From contig WBXG01000005.1 in assembly GCA_008932965.1 (NCBI GenBank), positions 8,307 to 40,306 on the forward strand: 32,000 bases of DNA, given 5' to 3'. Both the position numbers and the translations under genes were made by a program. The notes beneath the pieces were generated by a model, which saw only the letters and a list, made by a program, of their open reading frames with translations, had not been told where the DNA came from and ran no database searches. This document shows, piece after piece, positions 3,140 through 11,069 of the stretch (position 1 is the first letter of the stretch; each line of letters begins with the position of its first letter). Source of the DNA: Verrucomicrobiota bacterium (GTDB taxonomy: Bacteria; Verrucomicrobiota; Verrucomicrobiia; Chthoniobacterales; UBA6821).

Positions 3140-4324
3140 ATGGCTAAGGACACATTCCAACGCAACAAGCCGCACGTTAACGTCGGCACCATTGGTCACG
3201 TCGATCACGGCAAGACCACACTCACTGCTGCGATCACTACGGTGCTTGCAAAGTCTGGTAAAGCCCAAGCACGAGCTTATGACCAAATCGATGCTGCTCC
3301 CGAAGAAAAAGAGCGCGGTATTACGATTTCAACAGCCCATGTGGAGTATGAAAGTGATGCTCGTCACTATGCCCACGTCGATTGTCCAGGACATGCTGAT
3401 TATGTTAAAAACATGATTACTGGTGCTGCTCAAATGGACGGAGCAATTCTTGTTGTGAGTGCTGCTGATGGTCCAATGCCACAAACACGTGAGCACATTC
3501 TTTTGGCTCGTCAAGTAGGTGTTCCATCCATGGTTGTTTTCATGAACAAGGTAGATCTTGTAGATGATCCTGAATTACTCGATCTCGTTGAGATGGAAAT
3601 TCGCGATCTTCTTAGCTCCTATGATTTCCCTGGTGATGAAATCCCTATCGTCAAAGGAAGTGCAAAAAAAGCTCTTGATGGAGATCCAGAAATGGAAAAA
3701 CAAATTCTTGCACTCATCGATGCTGTAGATAAATACATTCCACTTCCAGAGCGTCCAAAAGACCAACCATTCCTCCTTCCTGTGGAAGATGTCTTCAACA
3801 TTGAAGGACGTGGAACTGTTGCCACAGGTCGTGTAGAACGTGGTATTCTTAAGAAAATGGAGGAAGTCGAAATTGTAGGTTTGAAGCCTACAGTCAAGAC
3901 AACAGTCACTGATATTGAGATGTTCCGTAAACTTCTTGATACTGCAGAAGCAGGCGACAACGTTGGTCTCCTACTTCGTGGTGTCAAAAAAGAAGATATT
4001 GAGCGTGGTCAGGTCATTGCAAAAGTCAACTCCATCAAGCCTCATAAAAAGTTCAAAGCTGAAATTTATGTCCTAAGCAAAGATGAAGGGGGCCGTCATA
4101 CACCTTTCTTCTCTAACTATCGTCCTCAATTTTACTTCCGCACTACCGATGTTACTGGCAGCGTTAAACTCCCAGAAGGAGTTGAAATGGTCATGCCCGG
4201 TGATAACGTAGCTATCGAAGTAGAACTCATTACTCCAATCGCTATGGAAAAAACGATCCGCTTCGCTATTCGTGAAGGTGGTCGTACCGTAGGTGCTGGA
4301 CGTGTTTCCGAAATCCTAGACTAA
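3140..4324 (+). CDS. tuf: Translation elongation factor Tu
   Basis: Full-length 394-aa EF-Tu with [17 protein letters not shown] and NKVD motifs. Very similar overall to chlamydial EF-Tu as I recall it. Confidence 0.99.
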
Positions 4325-5792: not shown

Positions 5793-7574
5793 ATGCAAAA
5801 AAAATGGATTCTTCCTTCTTCGGCAGATTCTAAGCTAGTTGAGAGGCTTGCTAAGGAATTGAAACTACCGCTGGCTCTTACTGAGGTGCTGGTGCAACGA
5901 GGATATGCCTCTGTAGAAGTTGCTACCAATTTTCTCAATCCACGTTTGGCTCAGTTGCGACCTCCTGAGGAGATTCCAAATATTTCTGCGGCAGCAGATC
6001 GTTTGCAAGTGGCATTGCAAAAAAAAGAAAAGATTATTCTTTATGGGGATTATGATGTTGATGGCATTACTTCATTAACCTTGTTGTGTCGCTCTTTGAG
6101 AGCTTTGGGAGGTGACGTTGATTGTTTTATTCCAGAGCGTGCTTCAGAGGGATATGGGCTTAGCAAGGCAGGATTGAAACGGTGTTTTGAAATATTCAAG
6201 CCAGGCCTTATCGTAGCTGTTGATTGTGGTACAAATTCTTTTGAGGAAGCTCAAATCATCCGGGAACAAAAAATCGATCTTATTGTTGTTGATCACCATG
6301 AAATTCAAAATAGAGGTCAGGCTAAGATTTTTGACAAAACTTCAATAGTAGTAGAATCAATAGAAACATCATCATGTTTTGTCAAAAATCTTAGCTTGAC
6401 CTCTATTTTAGTAAATCCTCAGCTAGGTTCTGACTATCACTATCTTTGTAGTGTTGGCTTGGTTTTCAAGCTCGTTCATGCACTGCTCAAGCGTTATCCC
6501 GCTCCCCCTTTTGACTTACGTGAATATCTTGATCTTGTGGCTTTAGGAACGGTTGCTGATATCGTCCCTCTTACGAAAGAAAATCGTATTTTTGTGACAC
6601 ATGGTCTCAAGCAGCTAGCTAAATCACGATGGCCGGGAGTAGTAGCTTTAATTAAGATTGCGGAGGTTCAACCCCCCTTTACTACCTATGACGTAGGTTA
6701 TAAATTGGGACCTCGTTTAAATGCAGCTGGTCGTCTTTCCTCTGCTTTAGAGGCATTGGAGCTATTGCTCACTGATGATCCTAATACTGCAACTCGTCTT
6801 GCCCATGATTTGGATCTTCGTAACCGTGAACGTCAGCTCATTGAGCGTGCTGTGACCCAAGAGGCAGAGGAATTAGTGACCTCGATTTTTTCAACATCCT
6901 CTCCTAAAAGCATCGTTTTGGGCCGCTCTCATTGGCATCACGGTGTTGTGGGGATTGTGGCTTCTCGTATTTCAAAACGCTGGCATCGTCCAACTCTTAT
7001 TATTGGTTTTGATGAACAGGGTCTTGGAAAAGGGAGTGGACGGAGTATTGAAGACTTCTCTCTAGTAATGGCTTTAGAAAAGTGCGCTGCTGTTTTAGAA
7101 ACTTTTGGAGGGCATGCAATGGCAGCTGGACTCACATTAAAAAAGAAAAATTGTGACATCCTCGCTAGCTCTTTTGAGCAGGCTGCAGAGCTTCTTCTCA
7201 CAGAAGAGGAGCTTACTCCTAAATTAAGATTCCATGCAGAAATAAAAACCTCAGAGCTTGATTCCAGTTGGTTGTTGGCACAAGAGAGGCTAGCCCCGTT
7301 TGGTGCAGGAAATGCACAACCGCTTTTTCTGGCTTATTCACTAATTCCGTTGCGAGAGCCACGTCTCTTAAAGGAAAAACATCTTCGTTTTGAATTTGCT
7401 GGAAAAAAGAATGTTCCCCTCATTGGAATTTTCTTTAATGGCGCTCAAGAGCCCCTTCCAAAGCCACCGTGGGATATTGCTTTTACGCTTATGAGCAATA
7501 CTTACCTTGGAAGAACAACGATGCAACTTCAGATTGTTGCGATTCGAACATCCTCGTTATCGCAGTTGATTTAA
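5793..7574 (+). CDS. recJ: Single-stranded-DNA-specific 5'-3' exonuclease RecJ
   Basis: DHH-family motifs are present: YGDYDVDGITS, VDCGT, VVDHH and GGHAMAAG (DHHA1). The length of 593 aa fits the family. Confidence 0.93.
   Translation: MQKKWILPSSADSKLVERLAKELKLPLALTEVLVQRGYASVEVATNFLNPRLAQLRPPEEIPNISAAADRLQVALQKKEKIILYGDYDVDGITSLTLLCRSLRALGGDVDCFIPERASEGYGLSKAGLKRCFEIFKPGLIVAVDCGTNSFEEAQIIREQKIDLIVVDHHEIQNRGQAKIFDKTSIVVESIETSSCFVKNLSLTSILVNPQLGSDYHYLCSVGLVFKLVHALLKRYPAPPFDLREYLDLVALGTVADIVPLTKENRIFVTHGLKQLAKSRWPGVVALIKIAEVQPPFTTYDVGYKLGPRLNAAGRLSSALEALELLLTDDPNTATRLAHDLDLRNRERQLIERAVTQEAEELVTSIFSTSSPKSIVLGRSHWHHGVVGIVASRISKRWHRPTLIIGFDEQGLGKGSGRSIEDFSLVMALEKCAAVLETFGGHAMAAGLTLKKKNCDILASSFEQAAELLLTEEELTPKLRFHAEIKTSELDSSWLLAQERLAPFGAGNAQPLFLAYSLIPLREPRLLKEKHLRFEFAGKKNVPLIGIFFNGAQEPLPKPPWDIAFTLMSNTYLGRTTMQLQIVAIRTSSLSQLI
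6307..6409. repeat. 103-bp palindromic element embedded in frame in recJ (34-bp arms, 35-nt spacer)
   Basis: The left arm 6307-6340 (AAAATAGAGGTCAGGCTAAGATTTTTGACAAAAC) is the reverse complement of 6376-6409, with one mismatch that would be a G:U pair in RNA. It encodes about 34 extra residues between the DHH motif and the conserved NP. Confidence 0.9.
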
Positions 7575-10631: not shown

Positions 10632-11069
10632 ATGAAGAAAATATTATTACTGCTATGCCTCCTCGGCGCTCTGACTTTTATGCCTGCTAGGGTCATGGCC
10701 CACTGTCAAATTCCCTGTGGTATTTTTCATGATGGTCTTATTTTTGAAACATTAGAGCAAAACATAGAGACCCTACAAAAAGCCGATCATGAGCTCAGTG
10801 ACTCATCTCTTTCTAACAATCAATCGGTGCGTTGGATCTTAAATAAAGAAGCCCAATCTGATCAGATCGCGCAGACAATGTTGACCTATTTTTTACAACA
10901 ACGTATTAAGCTAGATGATCCCAAACGCGCTGAAAAATTAGACCTTATTTCCAAAATTGTGATGCAATGCACCAAAGTAAAACAAACCACAGATGCTAAG
11001 GAGGTTTTCACTCTTGGTGATGAAATTCAACAACTCAAAGGACTTTCTGGTGTTGTTTTAGCAAAATAG
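10632..11069 (+). CDS. sodN: Nickel-containing superoxide dismutase (NiSOD) precursor with a Sec-type leader
   Basis: After a 23-aa leader (MKKILLLLCLLGALTFMPARVMA) comes the Ni-hook motif HCQIPCGIF (consensus H-C-x-x-P-C-G-x-Y). The mature part is about 122 aa, which fits the four-helix-bundle NiSOD. Confidence 0.8.
   Translation: MKKILLLLCLLGALTFMPARVMAHCQIPCGIFHDGLIFETLEQNIETLQKADHELSDSSLSNNQSVRWILNKEAQSDQIAQTMLTYFLQQRIKLDDPKRAEKLDLISKIVMQCTKVKQTTDAKEVFTLGDEIQQLKGLSGVVLAK

What the first reader, a model, noticed from the sequence alone, without database searches (positions are those of the whole stretch)
6307..6409. In-frame 103-bp palindromic element inside recJ, resembling Rickettsia palindromic elements
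Within recJ, a 34-bp arm (6307-6340) is repeated as its reverse complement at 6376-6409. There is a single mismatch, which would be a G:U pair in RNA, and a 35-nt spacer.

The element is translated without a stop (…EIQNRGQAKIFDKTSIVVESIETSSCFVKNLSLTSILV…). It accounts for about 34 extra residues between the catalytic DHH motif and the conserved NP. Other RecJ proteins, for example E. coli, have only about 12 residues there.

A 34-bp near-perfect inverted repeat is very unlikely to arise from coding constraints. The geometry (about 100 bp, long arms, in-frame insertion into a surface loop of a housekeeping enzyme) matches what is known for Rickettsia palindromic elements. I am not aware of this being a described feature of this lineage. 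It could be a selfish mobile repeat, or a very stable mRNA hairpin that regulates recJ.
Basis: partly seen in the sequence, partly recalled or inferred. Interest (0 to 1): 0.7.

Follow-up and report, generated by a model that had tools for sequence, protein, structure and literature searches.

The report
Transposon-derived palindrome inside recJ gene
A 103-base hairpin-forming piece of selfish DNA, a miniature copy of a transposon scattered through related Verrucomicrobia genomes, sits in-frame inside the DNA-repair gene recJ and has been inherited there across several species; such insertions are already known from other bacteria, so this is a clean example and not a new principle.

Summary
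In detail: 34-nt arms at 6307-6340 and 6376-6409, one G:U mismatch, a 35-nt spacer, RNA MFE -49.5 kcal/mol (z = -10.7), translated in-frame within a 593-aa RecJ.

It is not specific to recJ. The arm (core GGGGTCAGGCTAAGAATCTTGACA) is a dispersed repeat in Chthoniobacterales and other Verrucomicrobia genomes, with several copies per MAG. Many copies are 102-103-nt extragenic hairpin doublets.

In four of four independent loci the same repeat brackets, in inverted orientation, a ~345-aa Y1 (HUH) transposase. Its catalytic domain is structurally closest to the E. coli REP-associated tyrosine transposase (4ER8). The arms fit the published "TIRYT" terminal-repeat motif GGGGWSAS and do not fold on their own. 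The element is therefore a non-autonomous TIR doublet (MITE/REPIN-like), not a Rickettsia RPE.

In recJ it replaces a 13-residue loop with 36 residues that AlphaFold models with low confidence. It is inherited in a clade of 77-100% RecJ identity. A sister lineage keeps only a deletion remnant, and a distant lineage carries another arm subfamily in the same loop.

The element is the best-conserved stretch of recJ at third-codon positions. Why the arms stay complementary is unresolved.

Intragenic REP dimers in repair genes, including in Verrucomicrobia, were described in 2013. This is a new member of a known kind.

The parts
5793..7574 (+). recJ ORF (593 aa), host gene of the element
   Evidence: ORF list. 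Pfam DHH 71.6, RecJ_OB 61.1 and DHHA1 46.5 bits. AF2 model pLDDT 85.6; Foldseek top hits are RecJ structures 5F55, 8Y30 and 2ZXO.
6291..6299 (+). codons of the catalytic DHH motif (D167 H168 H169), 7 nt upstream of the element
   Evidence: Sequence. Invariant columns D167 H168 H169 in alignment A1.
6307..6409 (+). whole palindromic element: non-autonomous TIR doublet, 103 nt, read through in its only stop-free frame
   Evidence: Same length (102-103 nt) and arm sequence as the extragenic doublets L018 3142-3244, L018 7501-7602 and L020 504-606. Only frame 2 is open.
6307..6340 (+). left arm (terminal inverted repeat). Core 6313-6336 is GAGGTCAGGCTAAGATTTTTGACA, 3 substitutions from the family consensus. 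Encodes QNRGQAKIFDKT
   Evidence: The family consensus GGGGTCAGGCTAAGAATCTTGACA begins with GGGGTCAG, which fits the published TIRYT motif GGGGWSAS; the window copy itself reads GAGGTCAG and departs at position 2.
6341..6375 (+). 35-nt spacer (hairpin loop). Encodes SIVVESIETSS. Homologous among the four orthologous recJ copies (26-29 of 35 identical)
   Evidence: AF2 residues 181-201 have pLDDT below 50.
6376..6409 (-). right arm (same TIR, inverted). Core 6380-6403. Encodes CFVKNLSLTSI. Its last two bases are the first two bases of the invariant Leu206 codon
6408..6419 (+). codons of the invariant L-V-N-P motif that abuts the right end of the element. The junction is the same in the independent L006 insertion
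   Evidence: Alignment A1, invariant L206 V207 N208 P209. Right-anchored DNA comparison.

Best explanation
The 103-nt palindrome is a non-autonomous copy, a doublet of two terminal inverted repeats around a 35-nt spacer, of a transposable-element family of Chthoniobacterales and other Verrucomicrobia.

The autonomous form is a ~1.1-kb unit: TIR, then a ~345-aa Y1 (HUH) tyrosine transposase gene, then an inverted TIR. This is the published TIRYT or 'TIRtron' type, a long-form relative of the REP-associated tyrosine transposases.

Proposed mechanism, by analogy with TnpA-REP and IS200/IS605 enzymes (inferred, not shown): the transposase acts on single-stranded DNA, where the two arms of a doublet pair into a long hairpin, and moves the short doublets in trans.

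One such doublet landed in the loop between the DHH and LVNP motifs of recJ in an ancestor of the window's clade. It displaced most of the original 13-residue loop. It survived because it sits in the one reading frame of the doublet that has no stop codon and in a part of the protein that tolerates a disordered extension.

It has since been inherited vertically. It was largely deleted in one sister lineage. A different arm subfamily was inserted, probably independently, at the same junction in a distant lineage.

In recJ it is most likely a tolerated passenger. It adds about 23 residues to RecJ and places a very stable hairpin in the mRNA.
For: SHOWN
1. Dispersed family. A degenerate 23-mer of the arm hits 14 loci in one-genome-per-species data where about 2 are expected by chance. 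There are several contigs per MAG: LS5_sbin.15 has 4 contigs and 5 sites, Deming_bin.170 has 3 contigs including its recJ, and LS6_sbin.56 has 2. A fuzzy scan finds about 40 arm copies at 5 or fewer substitutions in the fetched loci, about 30 of them in the 14 genome-scan loci, arranged as doublets with spacers giving spans of 72-256 nt, plus singlets.
2. The extragenic doublets of the MAG that carries the orthologous recJ insert are 102-103 nt long with near-identical arms. All 8 non-recJ doublets lack a spanning open frame.
3. Transposase link. In L011, L041, L042 and L043/44 the repeat brackets a Y1_Tnp gene in inverted orientation. One copy lies about 28 nt before the start codon and the other overlaps the stop codon, and the central bases of the TIR co-vary with the transposase lineage.
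4. Transposase identity. Pfam Y1_Tnp scores 46.5 bits against a cut-off of 23. The best NCBIfam match is REP-associated tyrosine transposase. The AF2 model's top PDB match is 4ER8, the E. coli RAYT bound to a REP hairpin (E 7.7e-8, TMt 0.77), ahead of ISDra2, IS608 and IS200.
5. Doublets derive from the full unit. The 256-bp doublet in L013 still encodes transposase residues 300-324.
6. The family arm begins GGGGTCAG, which fits the GGGGWSAS motif of TIRYT repeats (PMC3733652; PMC6006769).
7. History in recJ. The insert is present in the window, P0002, P0003 and P0004 and absent from most RecJ proteins. An NJ tree puts the remnant-bearing P0006/P0008 as sister to this clade (bootstrap 93) and the insert-free P0005 and P0009 outside. 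L008 and L007 keep 15/24 and 11/24 identity to the outer right arm, against 4-6/24 in insert-free genes.
8. L006 carries a perfect 28-nt palindrome of the other arm subfamily at the same right junction.
9. Tolerance. Residues 181-201 are the only long segment below pLDDT 50 in an otherwise confident RecJ model. Each doublet has at most one stop-free frame, and it is the frame used in recJ.
10. Not an assembly artefact. The same protein is encoded on contigs from ENA, JGI, Logan and NCBI assemblies.
Against: - No second copy and no transposase are seen in the window itself or in about 90 kb of syntenic DNA from close relatives. The rest of the window's own genome could not be searched, so multi-copy status is shown only for related genomes.
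- No transposase gene was found on the three loci held from Deming_bin.170.
- Mobility is inferred from distribution and homology. No excision or insertion event was observed.
- The spacer of the recJ copy resembles the extragenic spacers only marginally (23/35; 53 of 1000 shuffles as good).
- A pure passenger should decay. Yet between the window and L005 the element is the best-conserved stretch of the gene at third-codon positions (30/35 against a mean of 18.9; 0 of 486 windows as good). The arms have 1 and 0 mismatches where 9-15 are expected under neutral decay. Something beyond simple tolerance is acting.
Confidence: 0.85

Rival explanations
1. Exapted functional hairpin. The element arrived as mobile DNA, but its stem is now kept by selection in recJ. 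It could act as an mRNA structure that tunes RecJ translation or stability, or as a DNA hairpin or protein-binding site that couples RecJ supply to activity of the single-strand transposon. This is compatible with the best explanation for origin and differs only on present function.
For: - Between the window and L005, third-codon identity is 86% in the element against 56% in the rest of recJ. No other 35-codon window reaches it, and the left flank is ordinary.
- Three stem pairs changed on both sides between orthologues. The left-arm changes are synonymous and the right-arm changes alter the protein (S>P, T>P, L>F).
- Neutral simulation gives P(1 or fewer mismatches) of 3e-4 or less.
- Published intragenic REPs are enriched in DNA repair genes (PMC3733652).
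Against: - The stem has decayed in the closest relatives. L001 has 6 disrupted stem positions (5 true mismatches plus one G:U) and its MFE falls to -31.8. L004 has about 5, of which 3 are G:U.
- P0123 of the window's own species has an uncompensated D>E change in the arm.
- One sister lineage deleted most of the element and kept recJ intact.
- With four sequences the covariation is not significant against shuffles (59 of 500).
- Element pairwise identities are 82-87% whatever the species distance, which does not fit uniform purifying selection.
- No promoter or terminator signal lies at the element, and there is no Rfam family above threshold.
Confidence: 0.15
2. The arms are kept alike without selection. 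Intramolecular template switching or mismatch correction within the extruded hairpin (quasi-palindrome correction) copies changes from one arm to the other. The palindrome then persists as a mutational by-product while the insert is otherwise a neutral passenger.
For: - Changes appear on both arms even when they alter the encoded protein.
- Outcomes are patchy among lineages: perfect in L005 and L006, near-perfect in the window, decayed in L001 and L004. That pattern is expected of a stochastic process.
- An extragenic doublet (L018 7507-7596) also shows a private variant (AATATT) shared by both of its arms.
- Quasi-palindrome correction is an established mutational mechanism (own knowledge).
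Against: - Arm-to-arm conversion explains complementarity, but not why the arm sequence, and third positions of the spacer (11/12 between window and L005), are conserved between species.
- It was not directly testable here.
Confidence: 0.3
3. Canonical REPIN/RAYT system in the strict sense: a doublet of short self-palindromic REP units moved by a single-copy domesticated RAYT.
For: - Doublet hairpin geometry of about 100 nt.
- The repeat flanks a Y1 gene.
- The best NCBIfam match and the best structural match are the REP-associated tyrosine transposase.
- JGI names many homologues RayT.
Against: - Single arms do not fold on their own (DNA MFE -0.5 to -1.2 kcal/mol, z about 0).
- There is no GTAG or CGTC tag (against PMC3733652).
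- The NCBIfam score of 63 is below the equivalog cut-off of 80.
- The protein is about twice the length of the 165-residue 4ER8 chain.
- Transposase fragments occur at several loci, which looks more like an IS than a single-copy domesticated gene.
Confidence: 0.1
4. Local de novo inverted duplication, or a member of the Rickettsia RPE families proper, unrelated to any transposon of this lineage.
For: Only the geometry: about 100 bp, in-frame, long arms.
Against: - The arm is a dispersed, transposase-linked repeat in Verrucomicrobia.
- The host is not Rickettsiales.
- RPEs have no known dedicated transposase, and the intragenic RPE-4 and RPE-6 are CGTC-type repeats (PMC3733652). These arms are not.
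Confidence: 0.02

Closest known systems
TIR repeat families of TIR-associated tyrosine transposases (TIRYT, 'TIRtrons'; Di Nocera et al. 2013, PMC3733652), equated with TnpA-REP subclass 2.1 by Quentin et al. 2018 (PMC6006769)
   Same: - A Y1/HUH transposase longer than RAYTs, bracketed by long terminal inverted repeats that begin with GGGGWSAS (GGGGTCAG in the family consensus).
- The repeats are not self-palindromic.
- They occur elsewhere in the genome as dimers and clusters.
   Different: - Those papers report intragenic copies only for GTAG and CGTC REPs, not for TIR dimers. recJ is not among the listed host genes.
- The C-terminal HTH reported for subclass 2.1 (Bac_DnaA_C, HTH_23 or HTH_28) is not detected by Pfam here.
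- The lineage (Chthoniobacterales) and this particular repeat sequence are not in the papers I could read.
REPIN/RAYT systems (Bertels and Rainey 2011, PMC3116915; Nunvar 2010; E. coli TnpA-REP structure 4ER8)
   Same: - Doublets of about 100 nt made of two inverted repeat units that form a hairpin.
- Non-autonomous.
- Flank a Y1 transposase whose fold is the closest match to ours.
- Overwhelmingly extragenic, and can persist over long periods.
   Different: - REP units are short self-palindromes with a GTAG tag. These arms are neither.
- RAYTs are about 150-190 aa and typically single-copy.
- The NCBIfam equivalog cut-off is not reached.
Intragenic REP dimers in DNA replication and repair genes (Di Nocera et al. 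2013), including Opitutus terrae (Verrucomicrobia)
   Same: - In-frame dimers that add 20-30 residues to housekeeping proteins.
- Many of the host genes are repair genes (uvrA, uvrB, uvrD, polA, recBCD, dnaE2, ligase).
- The same phylum is involved.
   Different: A different repeat class (GTAG or CGTC REPs rather than the TIR type). recJ is not reported. No analysis of orthologous persistence or arm co-evolution was made there.
Rickettsia palindromic elements (RPE-1 and others; Ogata et al. 2000, own knowledge; mentioned in PMC3733652)
   Same: Palindromic repeats of about 100-150 bp inserted in-frame into many protein-coding genes, translated, and thought to sit in surface-exposed, tolerated positions.
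   Different: - A different phylum and no demonstrated sequence relationship.
- No dedicated transposase is known for RPEs.
- RPEs are frequently intragenic. In this family 8 of 8 other doublets are extragenic.
Bacterial MITEs in general (review PMC10969869)
   Same: Small, non-coding, multi-copy, with TIRs matching those of an autonomous element. They arise by internal deletion.
   Different: - Classical MITEs depend on DDE transposases and make target-site duplications.
- Here the partner is a Y1/HUH enzyme and no duplication is evident.

Membership tests
TIR/TIRYT ('TIRtron'; TnpA-REP subclass 2.1) | Y1/HUH transposase gene bracketed by long terminal inverted repeats | tested here: met
   Four of four independent loci (L011, L041, L042, L043/44). 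The TIR(+) ends about 28 nt before the start codon and the TIR(-) overlaps the stop codon.
TIR/TIRYT ('TIRtron'; TnpA-REP subclass 2.1) | TIR carries the motif GGGGWSAS (GGGG[AT][CG]A[CG]) | tested here: met
   Family consensus GGGGTCAGGC.... Motif taken from PMC3733652 and PMC6006769. The window copy reads GAGGTCAG, with one substitution present on both arms.
TIR/TIRYT ('TIRtron'; TnpA-REP subclass 2.1) | Transposase longer than RAYTs, with a C-terminal HTH domain (Bac_DnaA_C, HTH_23 or HTH_28) | tested here: inconclusive
   Length is met: 343-353 aa across the family, against the 165-residue 4ER8 chain. The AF2 model shows a helical C-terminal part. Pfam finds no HTH family even at E up to 10.
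TIR/TIRYT ('TIRtron'; TnpA-REP subclass 2.1) | TIRs also occur as dispersed dimers or clusters in the genome | tested here: met
   Doublets in L010, L013, L018 (two), L020, L021 and L022. Tandem ends in L019. Several contigs per MAG.
REPIN/RAYT (strict sense) | Two inverted repeat units with a short spacer forming a hairpin of about 100 nt | tested here: met
REPIN/RAYT (strict sense) | Each unit is itself a short imperfect palindrome (REP) with a conserved GTAG-type tag | tested here: not met
   Single arms fold at -0.5 to -1.2 kcal/mol with z between -0.8 and +0.7. There is no GTAG or CGTC at either end.
REPIN/RAYT (strict sense) | Associated protein is a RAYT | tested here: inconclusive
   NCBIfam NF047646 is the best hit, but 63.1 bits is below the cut-off of 80. 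The best structural match is the RAYT 4ER8. HUH (H60-Y61-H62) and YIHLNP motifs are present in the sequence.
REPIN/RAYT (strict sense) | Single-copy, vertically inherited transposase; tens to hundreds of extragenic repeats per genome | not testable with these tools
   Whole genomes could not be read. Transposase fragments at L011 2555-2673, L013 and L019 hint at more than one copy. At least 5 repeat sites were seen in LS5_sbin.15 with a strict pattern.
Rickettsia palindromic elements (RPE) | Repeat family of Rickettsia genomes with sequence similarity to an RPE consensus | tested here: not met
   The host lineage is Verrucomicrobia/Chthoniobacterales.
Rickettsia palindromic elements (RPE) | Palindromic, about 100-150 bp, inserted in-frame in protein-coding genes and translated | tested here: met
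   Translation is inferred from the intact ORF, not observed.
MITE (generic) | Short, no coding capacity of its own, TIRs identical to those of an autonomous element, multi-copy, derived by internal deletion | tested here: met
   The L013 doublet retains a transposase C-terminal fragment.
MITE (generic) | Target-site duplication flanking the element | tested here: inconclusive
   No duplication is evident by inspection of the flanks, but the exact element ends are uncertain within the AAAAT/ATTTT termini. None is expected for Y1 enzymes.

The most novel reading that the evidence does not exclude
The hairpin is not just tolerated but kept in place inside recJ, because it links the transposon to the enzyme that would destroy its intermediates. 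RecJ degrades 5' single-stranded DNA, and the element family moves through single-stranded hairpins. A transposase-recognisable hairpin inside the recJ coding sequence (in DNA or mRNA) could lower RecJ output when the transposase is active, or could be maintained by repeated enzyme-mediated repair. This would explain the extreme third-codon conservation, the paired arm changes, the second, probably independent insertion at the same junction, and the published enrichment of such repeats in repair genes.
Probability: 0.1. Interest if true: 0.75.

Novelty: new member of a known kind. Interest (0 to 1): 0.4.

Why it matters
The finding turns an odd-looking hairpin in a housekeeping gene into an identified object: a miniature derivative of a Y1-transposase element that is abundant but barely studied in soil and freshwater Verrucomicrobia.

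It adds three things:
- an example of a TIRYT-type repeat, as opposed to a GTAG/CGTC REP or an RPE, living in-frame in a protein;
- a second, probably independent, insertion at the same junction of the same repair gene;
- an orthologous series (intact, decaying, deleted) in which the fate of an intragenic palindrome can be followed over deep divergence.

The open point is why the arms, and even silent sites of the element, are conserved in situ. It bears on a general question about REPIN-like elements: whether their hairpins are preserved by selection, by the transposase, or by hairpin-templated repair.

For annotation, it warns that the extra RecJ loop is transposon-encoded, not a lineage-specific functional domain.

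Tried and rejected
1. The metagenome scan for close RecJ relatives returned only 32-39% identical genes, with no information on the insert.
2. A composite peptide query of doublet translations against 5.8 billion proteins, meant to find in-frame copies in other proteins, gave 43 candidates and none scored. It did not even recover the RecJ proteins that contain the peptide, so the result is technically uninformative. Whether other genes carry in-frame copies remains untested.
3. The 'site 2' inserts after NPQ(L/K)G in L006, L007, L008 and L040 were tested for relics of the repeat. Local alignments are no better than shuffles (44-300 of 300 shuffles as good). A relationship is rejected for lack of evidence.
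4. A plasmid-collection BLAST of the element gave only 25-nt chance hits in Borrelia plasmids.
5. Rfam gave only sub-threshold matches to eukaryotic miRNA-precursor models, which are generic long hairpins.
6. No sigma-70-like promoter or intrinsic terminator lies at the element. The T-run is part of the stem.
7. Pfam detected no HTH in the transposase C-terminus.
8. Cluster members of the insert-bearing RecJ proteins add almost no variation.
9. A recombination tract as the cause of the conservation is not supported. The left flank is ordinary (8/20) and the right flank only mildly raised.
10. Independent fresh insertion as the explanation for L005's perfect arms is rejected. L005 shares with the window clade a derived T at core position 16 on both arms, a homologous spacer and identical junctions, and it differs from the other copies in its own genome at 3 of 24 core positions.
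Full report
OBSERVATION. The inverted repeat is real and sits at the stated coordinates: arms 6307-6340 and 6376-6409, 34 nt, 97% complementary, 35 nt apart. The single mismatch is a G opposite a T, which is a G:U pair in the sense transcript. No shuffle of the window produced a match to the arm at up to 3 mismatches. Every other inverted repeat of 20 nt or more in the window is only 71-77% complementary. As RNA the region folds at -49.5 kcal/mol against -16.7 +/- 3.1 for shuffles (z = -10.7). The element lies in ORF 5793-7574 (+), a 593-aa protein with DHH, DHHA1 and RecJ_OB domains. An AlphaFold model of the protein (pLDDT 85.6, pTM 0.85) matches solved RecJ structures: 5F55 at E 8e-46 and TMq 0.79, also 8Y30 and 2ZXO. 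The element starts 7 nt after the DHH codons (6291-6299), and its last two bases belong to the invariant Leu of the LVNP motif (6408-6419).

SIZE OF THE INSERTION. In an alignment of 21 RecJ proteins from the same phylum, the stretch between DHH and LVNP is 36 residues in the window and its three closest relatives. These are P0002 (89% identical), P0003 (86%) and P0004 (77%). In most others the stretch is 13 residues. The net gain is therefore about 23 residues, not 34. The palindrome replaced most of the ancestral loop. Residues 181-201, inside the element, are the only long segment of the model with pLDDT below 50. That fits a disordered loop, although surface exposure was not computed.

IT IS A DISPERSED REPEAT. 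Nothing else in the window, or in about 90 kb of syntenic DNA from relatives, resembles the element. A scan of one genome per species with a degenerate 23-mer covering the three intact arm variants (GRGGKCAGGCTAMRAWTYTTGAC; about 2 chance hits expected) returned 14 loci, all from Verrucomicrobia or unclassified MAGs. Several contigs came from the same MAG. LS5_sbin.15 gave four contigs and five sites. Deming_bin.170 gave three contigs, one of which is its recJ. LS6_sbin.56 gave two.

A fuzzy scan of the fetched loci (5 or fewer substitutions to the core GGGGTCAGGCTAAGAATCTTGACA or its variant ...CTACAAATCTTGACA) finds about 40 arm copies, about 30 of them in the 14 genome-scan loci. They are arranged as hairpin doublets with core spans of 72, 90-91, 135, 176 and 256 nt, as singlets, and as tandem ends. 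The doublets of Deming_bin.170, the MAG whose recJ holds the orthologous insert, are 102-103 nt long, like the recJ element. None of the eight non-recJ doublets is spanned by an open frame. Only the recJ copies are.

THE PARTNER GENE. In L011 the repeat brackets, in inverted orientation, a 343-aa ORF. The ORF passes Pfam Y1_Tnp (46.5 bits, cut-off 23). Its best NCBIfam match is 'REP-associated tyrosine transposase', at 63 bits and below the equivalog cut-off of 80. It has an HUH motif (H60-Y61-H62) and a YIHLNP tyrosine motif.

The family is large, with 3,668 hits at E of 1e-10 or better. Members are 343-353 aa and conserved over their full length. JGI often labels them RayT. Three further homologues from other genomes show the same arrangement: one repeat ends about 28 nt before the start codon and the inverted one overlaps the stop codon. 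The central bases of the repeat differ between transposase lineages, while GGGGTCAGGC and TTGACA (or a single-base variant of it) at the inner end stay.

An AlphaFold model of P0128 (pLDDT 82) is closest to 4ER8, the E. coli REP-associated tyrosine transposase bound to a REP hairpin (E 7.7e-8, TMt 0.77). ISDra2, IS608 and IS200 transposases follow. The 256-bp doublet of L013 still encodes transposase residues 300-324, and N-terminal fragments occur in L013 and L019. The short doublets are therefore internal-deletion derivatives of the full unit.

CLASSIFICATION. Single arms do not fold by themselves (z about 0) and carry no GTAG or CGTC tag, so they are not REP units in the strict sense. They do fit a class described by Di Nocera et al. 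2013 (PMC3733652). That class comprises 'TIRYT' genes: Y1 transposases longer than RAYTs, flanked by long terminal inverted repeats that share the motif GGGGWSAS, with the repeats forming moderately abundant families of dimers and clusters. The repeat family here begins GGGGTCAG. Quentin et al. 2018 (PMC6006769) equate TIRYTs with TnpA-REP subclass 2.1, which carries a C-terminal HTH. Pfam does not detect such a domain here, although the model shows a helical C-terminal part. I therefore file the element as a non-autonomous TIR doublet of a TIRYT-type family. It works like a REPIN or MITE and is not a member of the Rickettsia RPE families.

HISTORY IN recJ. An NJ tree of RecJ built without the loop columns places P0006 and P0008 as sister to the insert-bearing clade (bootstrap 93). 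Insert-free P0009 and P0005 lie outside. P0006 and P0008 have an 11-residue loop, EIQDPDQLPPI and EIKDKAHLPPI. It shares EIQ and LPPI with the insert-bearing proteins. At the DNA level it keeps 11/24 and 15/24 identity to the outer right arm, against 4-6/24 in insert-free genes. The simplest reading is one insertion in the common ancestor, followed by an in-frame internal deletion in that lineage.

L006 (P0015, about 62% identical) sits elsewhere in the tree, though its exact position is poorly supported. It carries a perfect 28-nt palindrome whose arms are the other subfamily (GGGGTCAGGCTACAAATCTTGACA, identical to copies in L013, L015 and L022). Its spacer is not alignable with the window's, and its left junction is three codons further from DHH. 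Its right junction, abutting the LVNP codons, is the same. This is probably an independent insertion into the same loop. It could reflect a target preference or simply the only tolerant spot.

HOW THE ELEMENT EVOLVES IN SITU. Between the window and L005, recJ is 74% identical overall and 56% at third-codon positions. The element is 84% and 86% identical respectively. Its 35 codons are the best-conserved third-position window in the gene (30/35 against a mean of 18.9, sd 2.8; 0 of 486 windows as good), while the left flank is ordinary at 8/20.

Three stem pairs differ on both sides between orthologues. The left-arm changes are synonymous and the right-arm partners change the protein (S>P, T>P, L>F). 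A neutral simulation calibrated on third-position divergence expects 9-15 mismatched pairs of 34. The window has 1 and L005 has 0.

There are caveats. With four sequences the covariation count is not significant against shuffles (59 of 500). L001 has 6 disrupted stem positions (5 true mismatches plus one G:U) and L004 about 5 (3 of them G:U). A variant of the window's own species has an uncompensated arm change. Pairwise element identities are 82-87% whatever the species distance.

L005's copy is orthologous and not freshly inserted. It shares with the window clade a derived T at core position 16 on both arms, the spacer and both junctions, and it differs from the other copies in its own genome at 3 of 24 core positions. 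Some process therefore keeps the arms alike in some lineages. It could be selection on the hairpin, hairpin-templated correction, or an effect of the transposase. The data do not decide.

MECHANISM, SHOWN AND INFERRED.
- Shown: the family, its link to the Y1 gene, the deletion origin of the doublets, the single open frame, the in-frame position, and the phylogenetic pattern.
- Inferred from homology to TnpA-REP and IS200/IS605 enzymes: single-strand cleavage and joining at hairpin-forming ends, and mobilisation of the doublets in trans.
- Inferred from the intact ORF and the model: translation through the element and a tolerated disordered loop.
- Not tested: any effect of the -49.5 kcal/mol hairpin on recJ expression.

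COMPARISON AND NOVELTY. In-frame palindromic repeats are known from Rickettsia (the RPEs). Di Nocera et al. reported intragenic GTAG and CGTC REPs, more than half of them dimers encoding 20-30 residues, enriched in replication and repair genes, with the highest GTAG count in the verrucomicrobium Opitutus terrae. In the literature I could search, recJ is not listed as a host gene, and TIR-type (TIRYT) repeats are not reported inside genes. This is a new member of a known kind, with an unusually clear orthologous series.

DEAD ENDS. These are the metagenome scan, the composite peptide search, the site-2 inserts, the plasmid BLAST, Rfam, the promoter and terminator scan, and the Pfam search of the transposase C-terminus.

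Noticed in passing
L016 about 3905-3990; L043 2925-2960 and 4060-4125; L041 4045-4140; L011 flanks of 808-1839; L020 600-620; also L015, L019, L022, L023: Just outside almost every transposase-linked or singlet repeat there are 2-6 tandem copies of a short unit. The unit is the last 8-10 nt of the TIR (GGGGTCA / CTGACCCC) plus 5-12 nt of flank, for example GAATTTAGGGGTCA five times or CTGACCCCTATTGTTGATGA three times. They are absent from the recJ copy. They may be footprints of repeated cleavage and rejoining by the Y1 enzyme, but this is unexplained.
   Followed up: partly
recJ of L006 (2446-4230), L007 (151-2031), L008 (794-2662), L040 (10001-11854): region right after the NPQ(L/K) codons: There is a second insertion hot-spot a few codons downstream of the first. 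Four lineages carry unrelated 45-66-residue inserts there, and several have their own hairpins (L006 GTTCAGAGCC...GGCTCTGAAC; L040 GAATTTTGATTTGGGC...GCCCAAGTCAAGATTC). None shows significant similarity to the repeat studied here.
   Followed up: partly
L041 3953-4741 (-): An IS110-family (DEDD_Tnp_IS110) gene sits directly on the downstream TIR cluster and overlaps the 3' end of the Y1 transposase gene. IS110/IS1111 elements are known to target REP-like repeats (own knowledge), so this may be another case.
   Followed up: no
L015 5735-5758 (Haloferula chungangensis CCUG 61920, NZ_JBHTBS010000019.1): The exact 24-mer of the second arm subfamily (GGGGTCAGGCTACAAATCTTGACA) occurs in a cultured verrucomicrobium. 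That strain could serve as an experimental host for the family. No transposase lies within the 8 kb held.
   Followed up: no
L011 2555-2723; L013 3561-3635 and 5751-5843; L019 5861-5917 and 3450/3808/4222: Truncated or frameshifted transposase fragments lie next to repeats, and L019 has three same-strand repeat ends spaced 358 and 414 nt apart. Together these suggest repeated decay and rearrangement of full-length units, which is more IS-like than a single domesticated RAYT.
   Followed up: partly
window 6304-6412: Rfam's only matches are sub-threshold hits to eukaryotic miRNA-precursor models (for example MIR8706 at 42 bits against a gathering score of 95). Any long perfect hairpin draws such hits.
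   Followed up: yes
window 10632-11069 and syntenic loci L001-L005: The neighbourhood is conserved across the clade: tuf, secE, nusG, recJ, a TPR protein, proC, photolyase and a nickel superoxide dismutase (Sod_Ni). The recJ insert therefore sits in a stable, syntenic core region and not in a mobile island.
   Followed up: no
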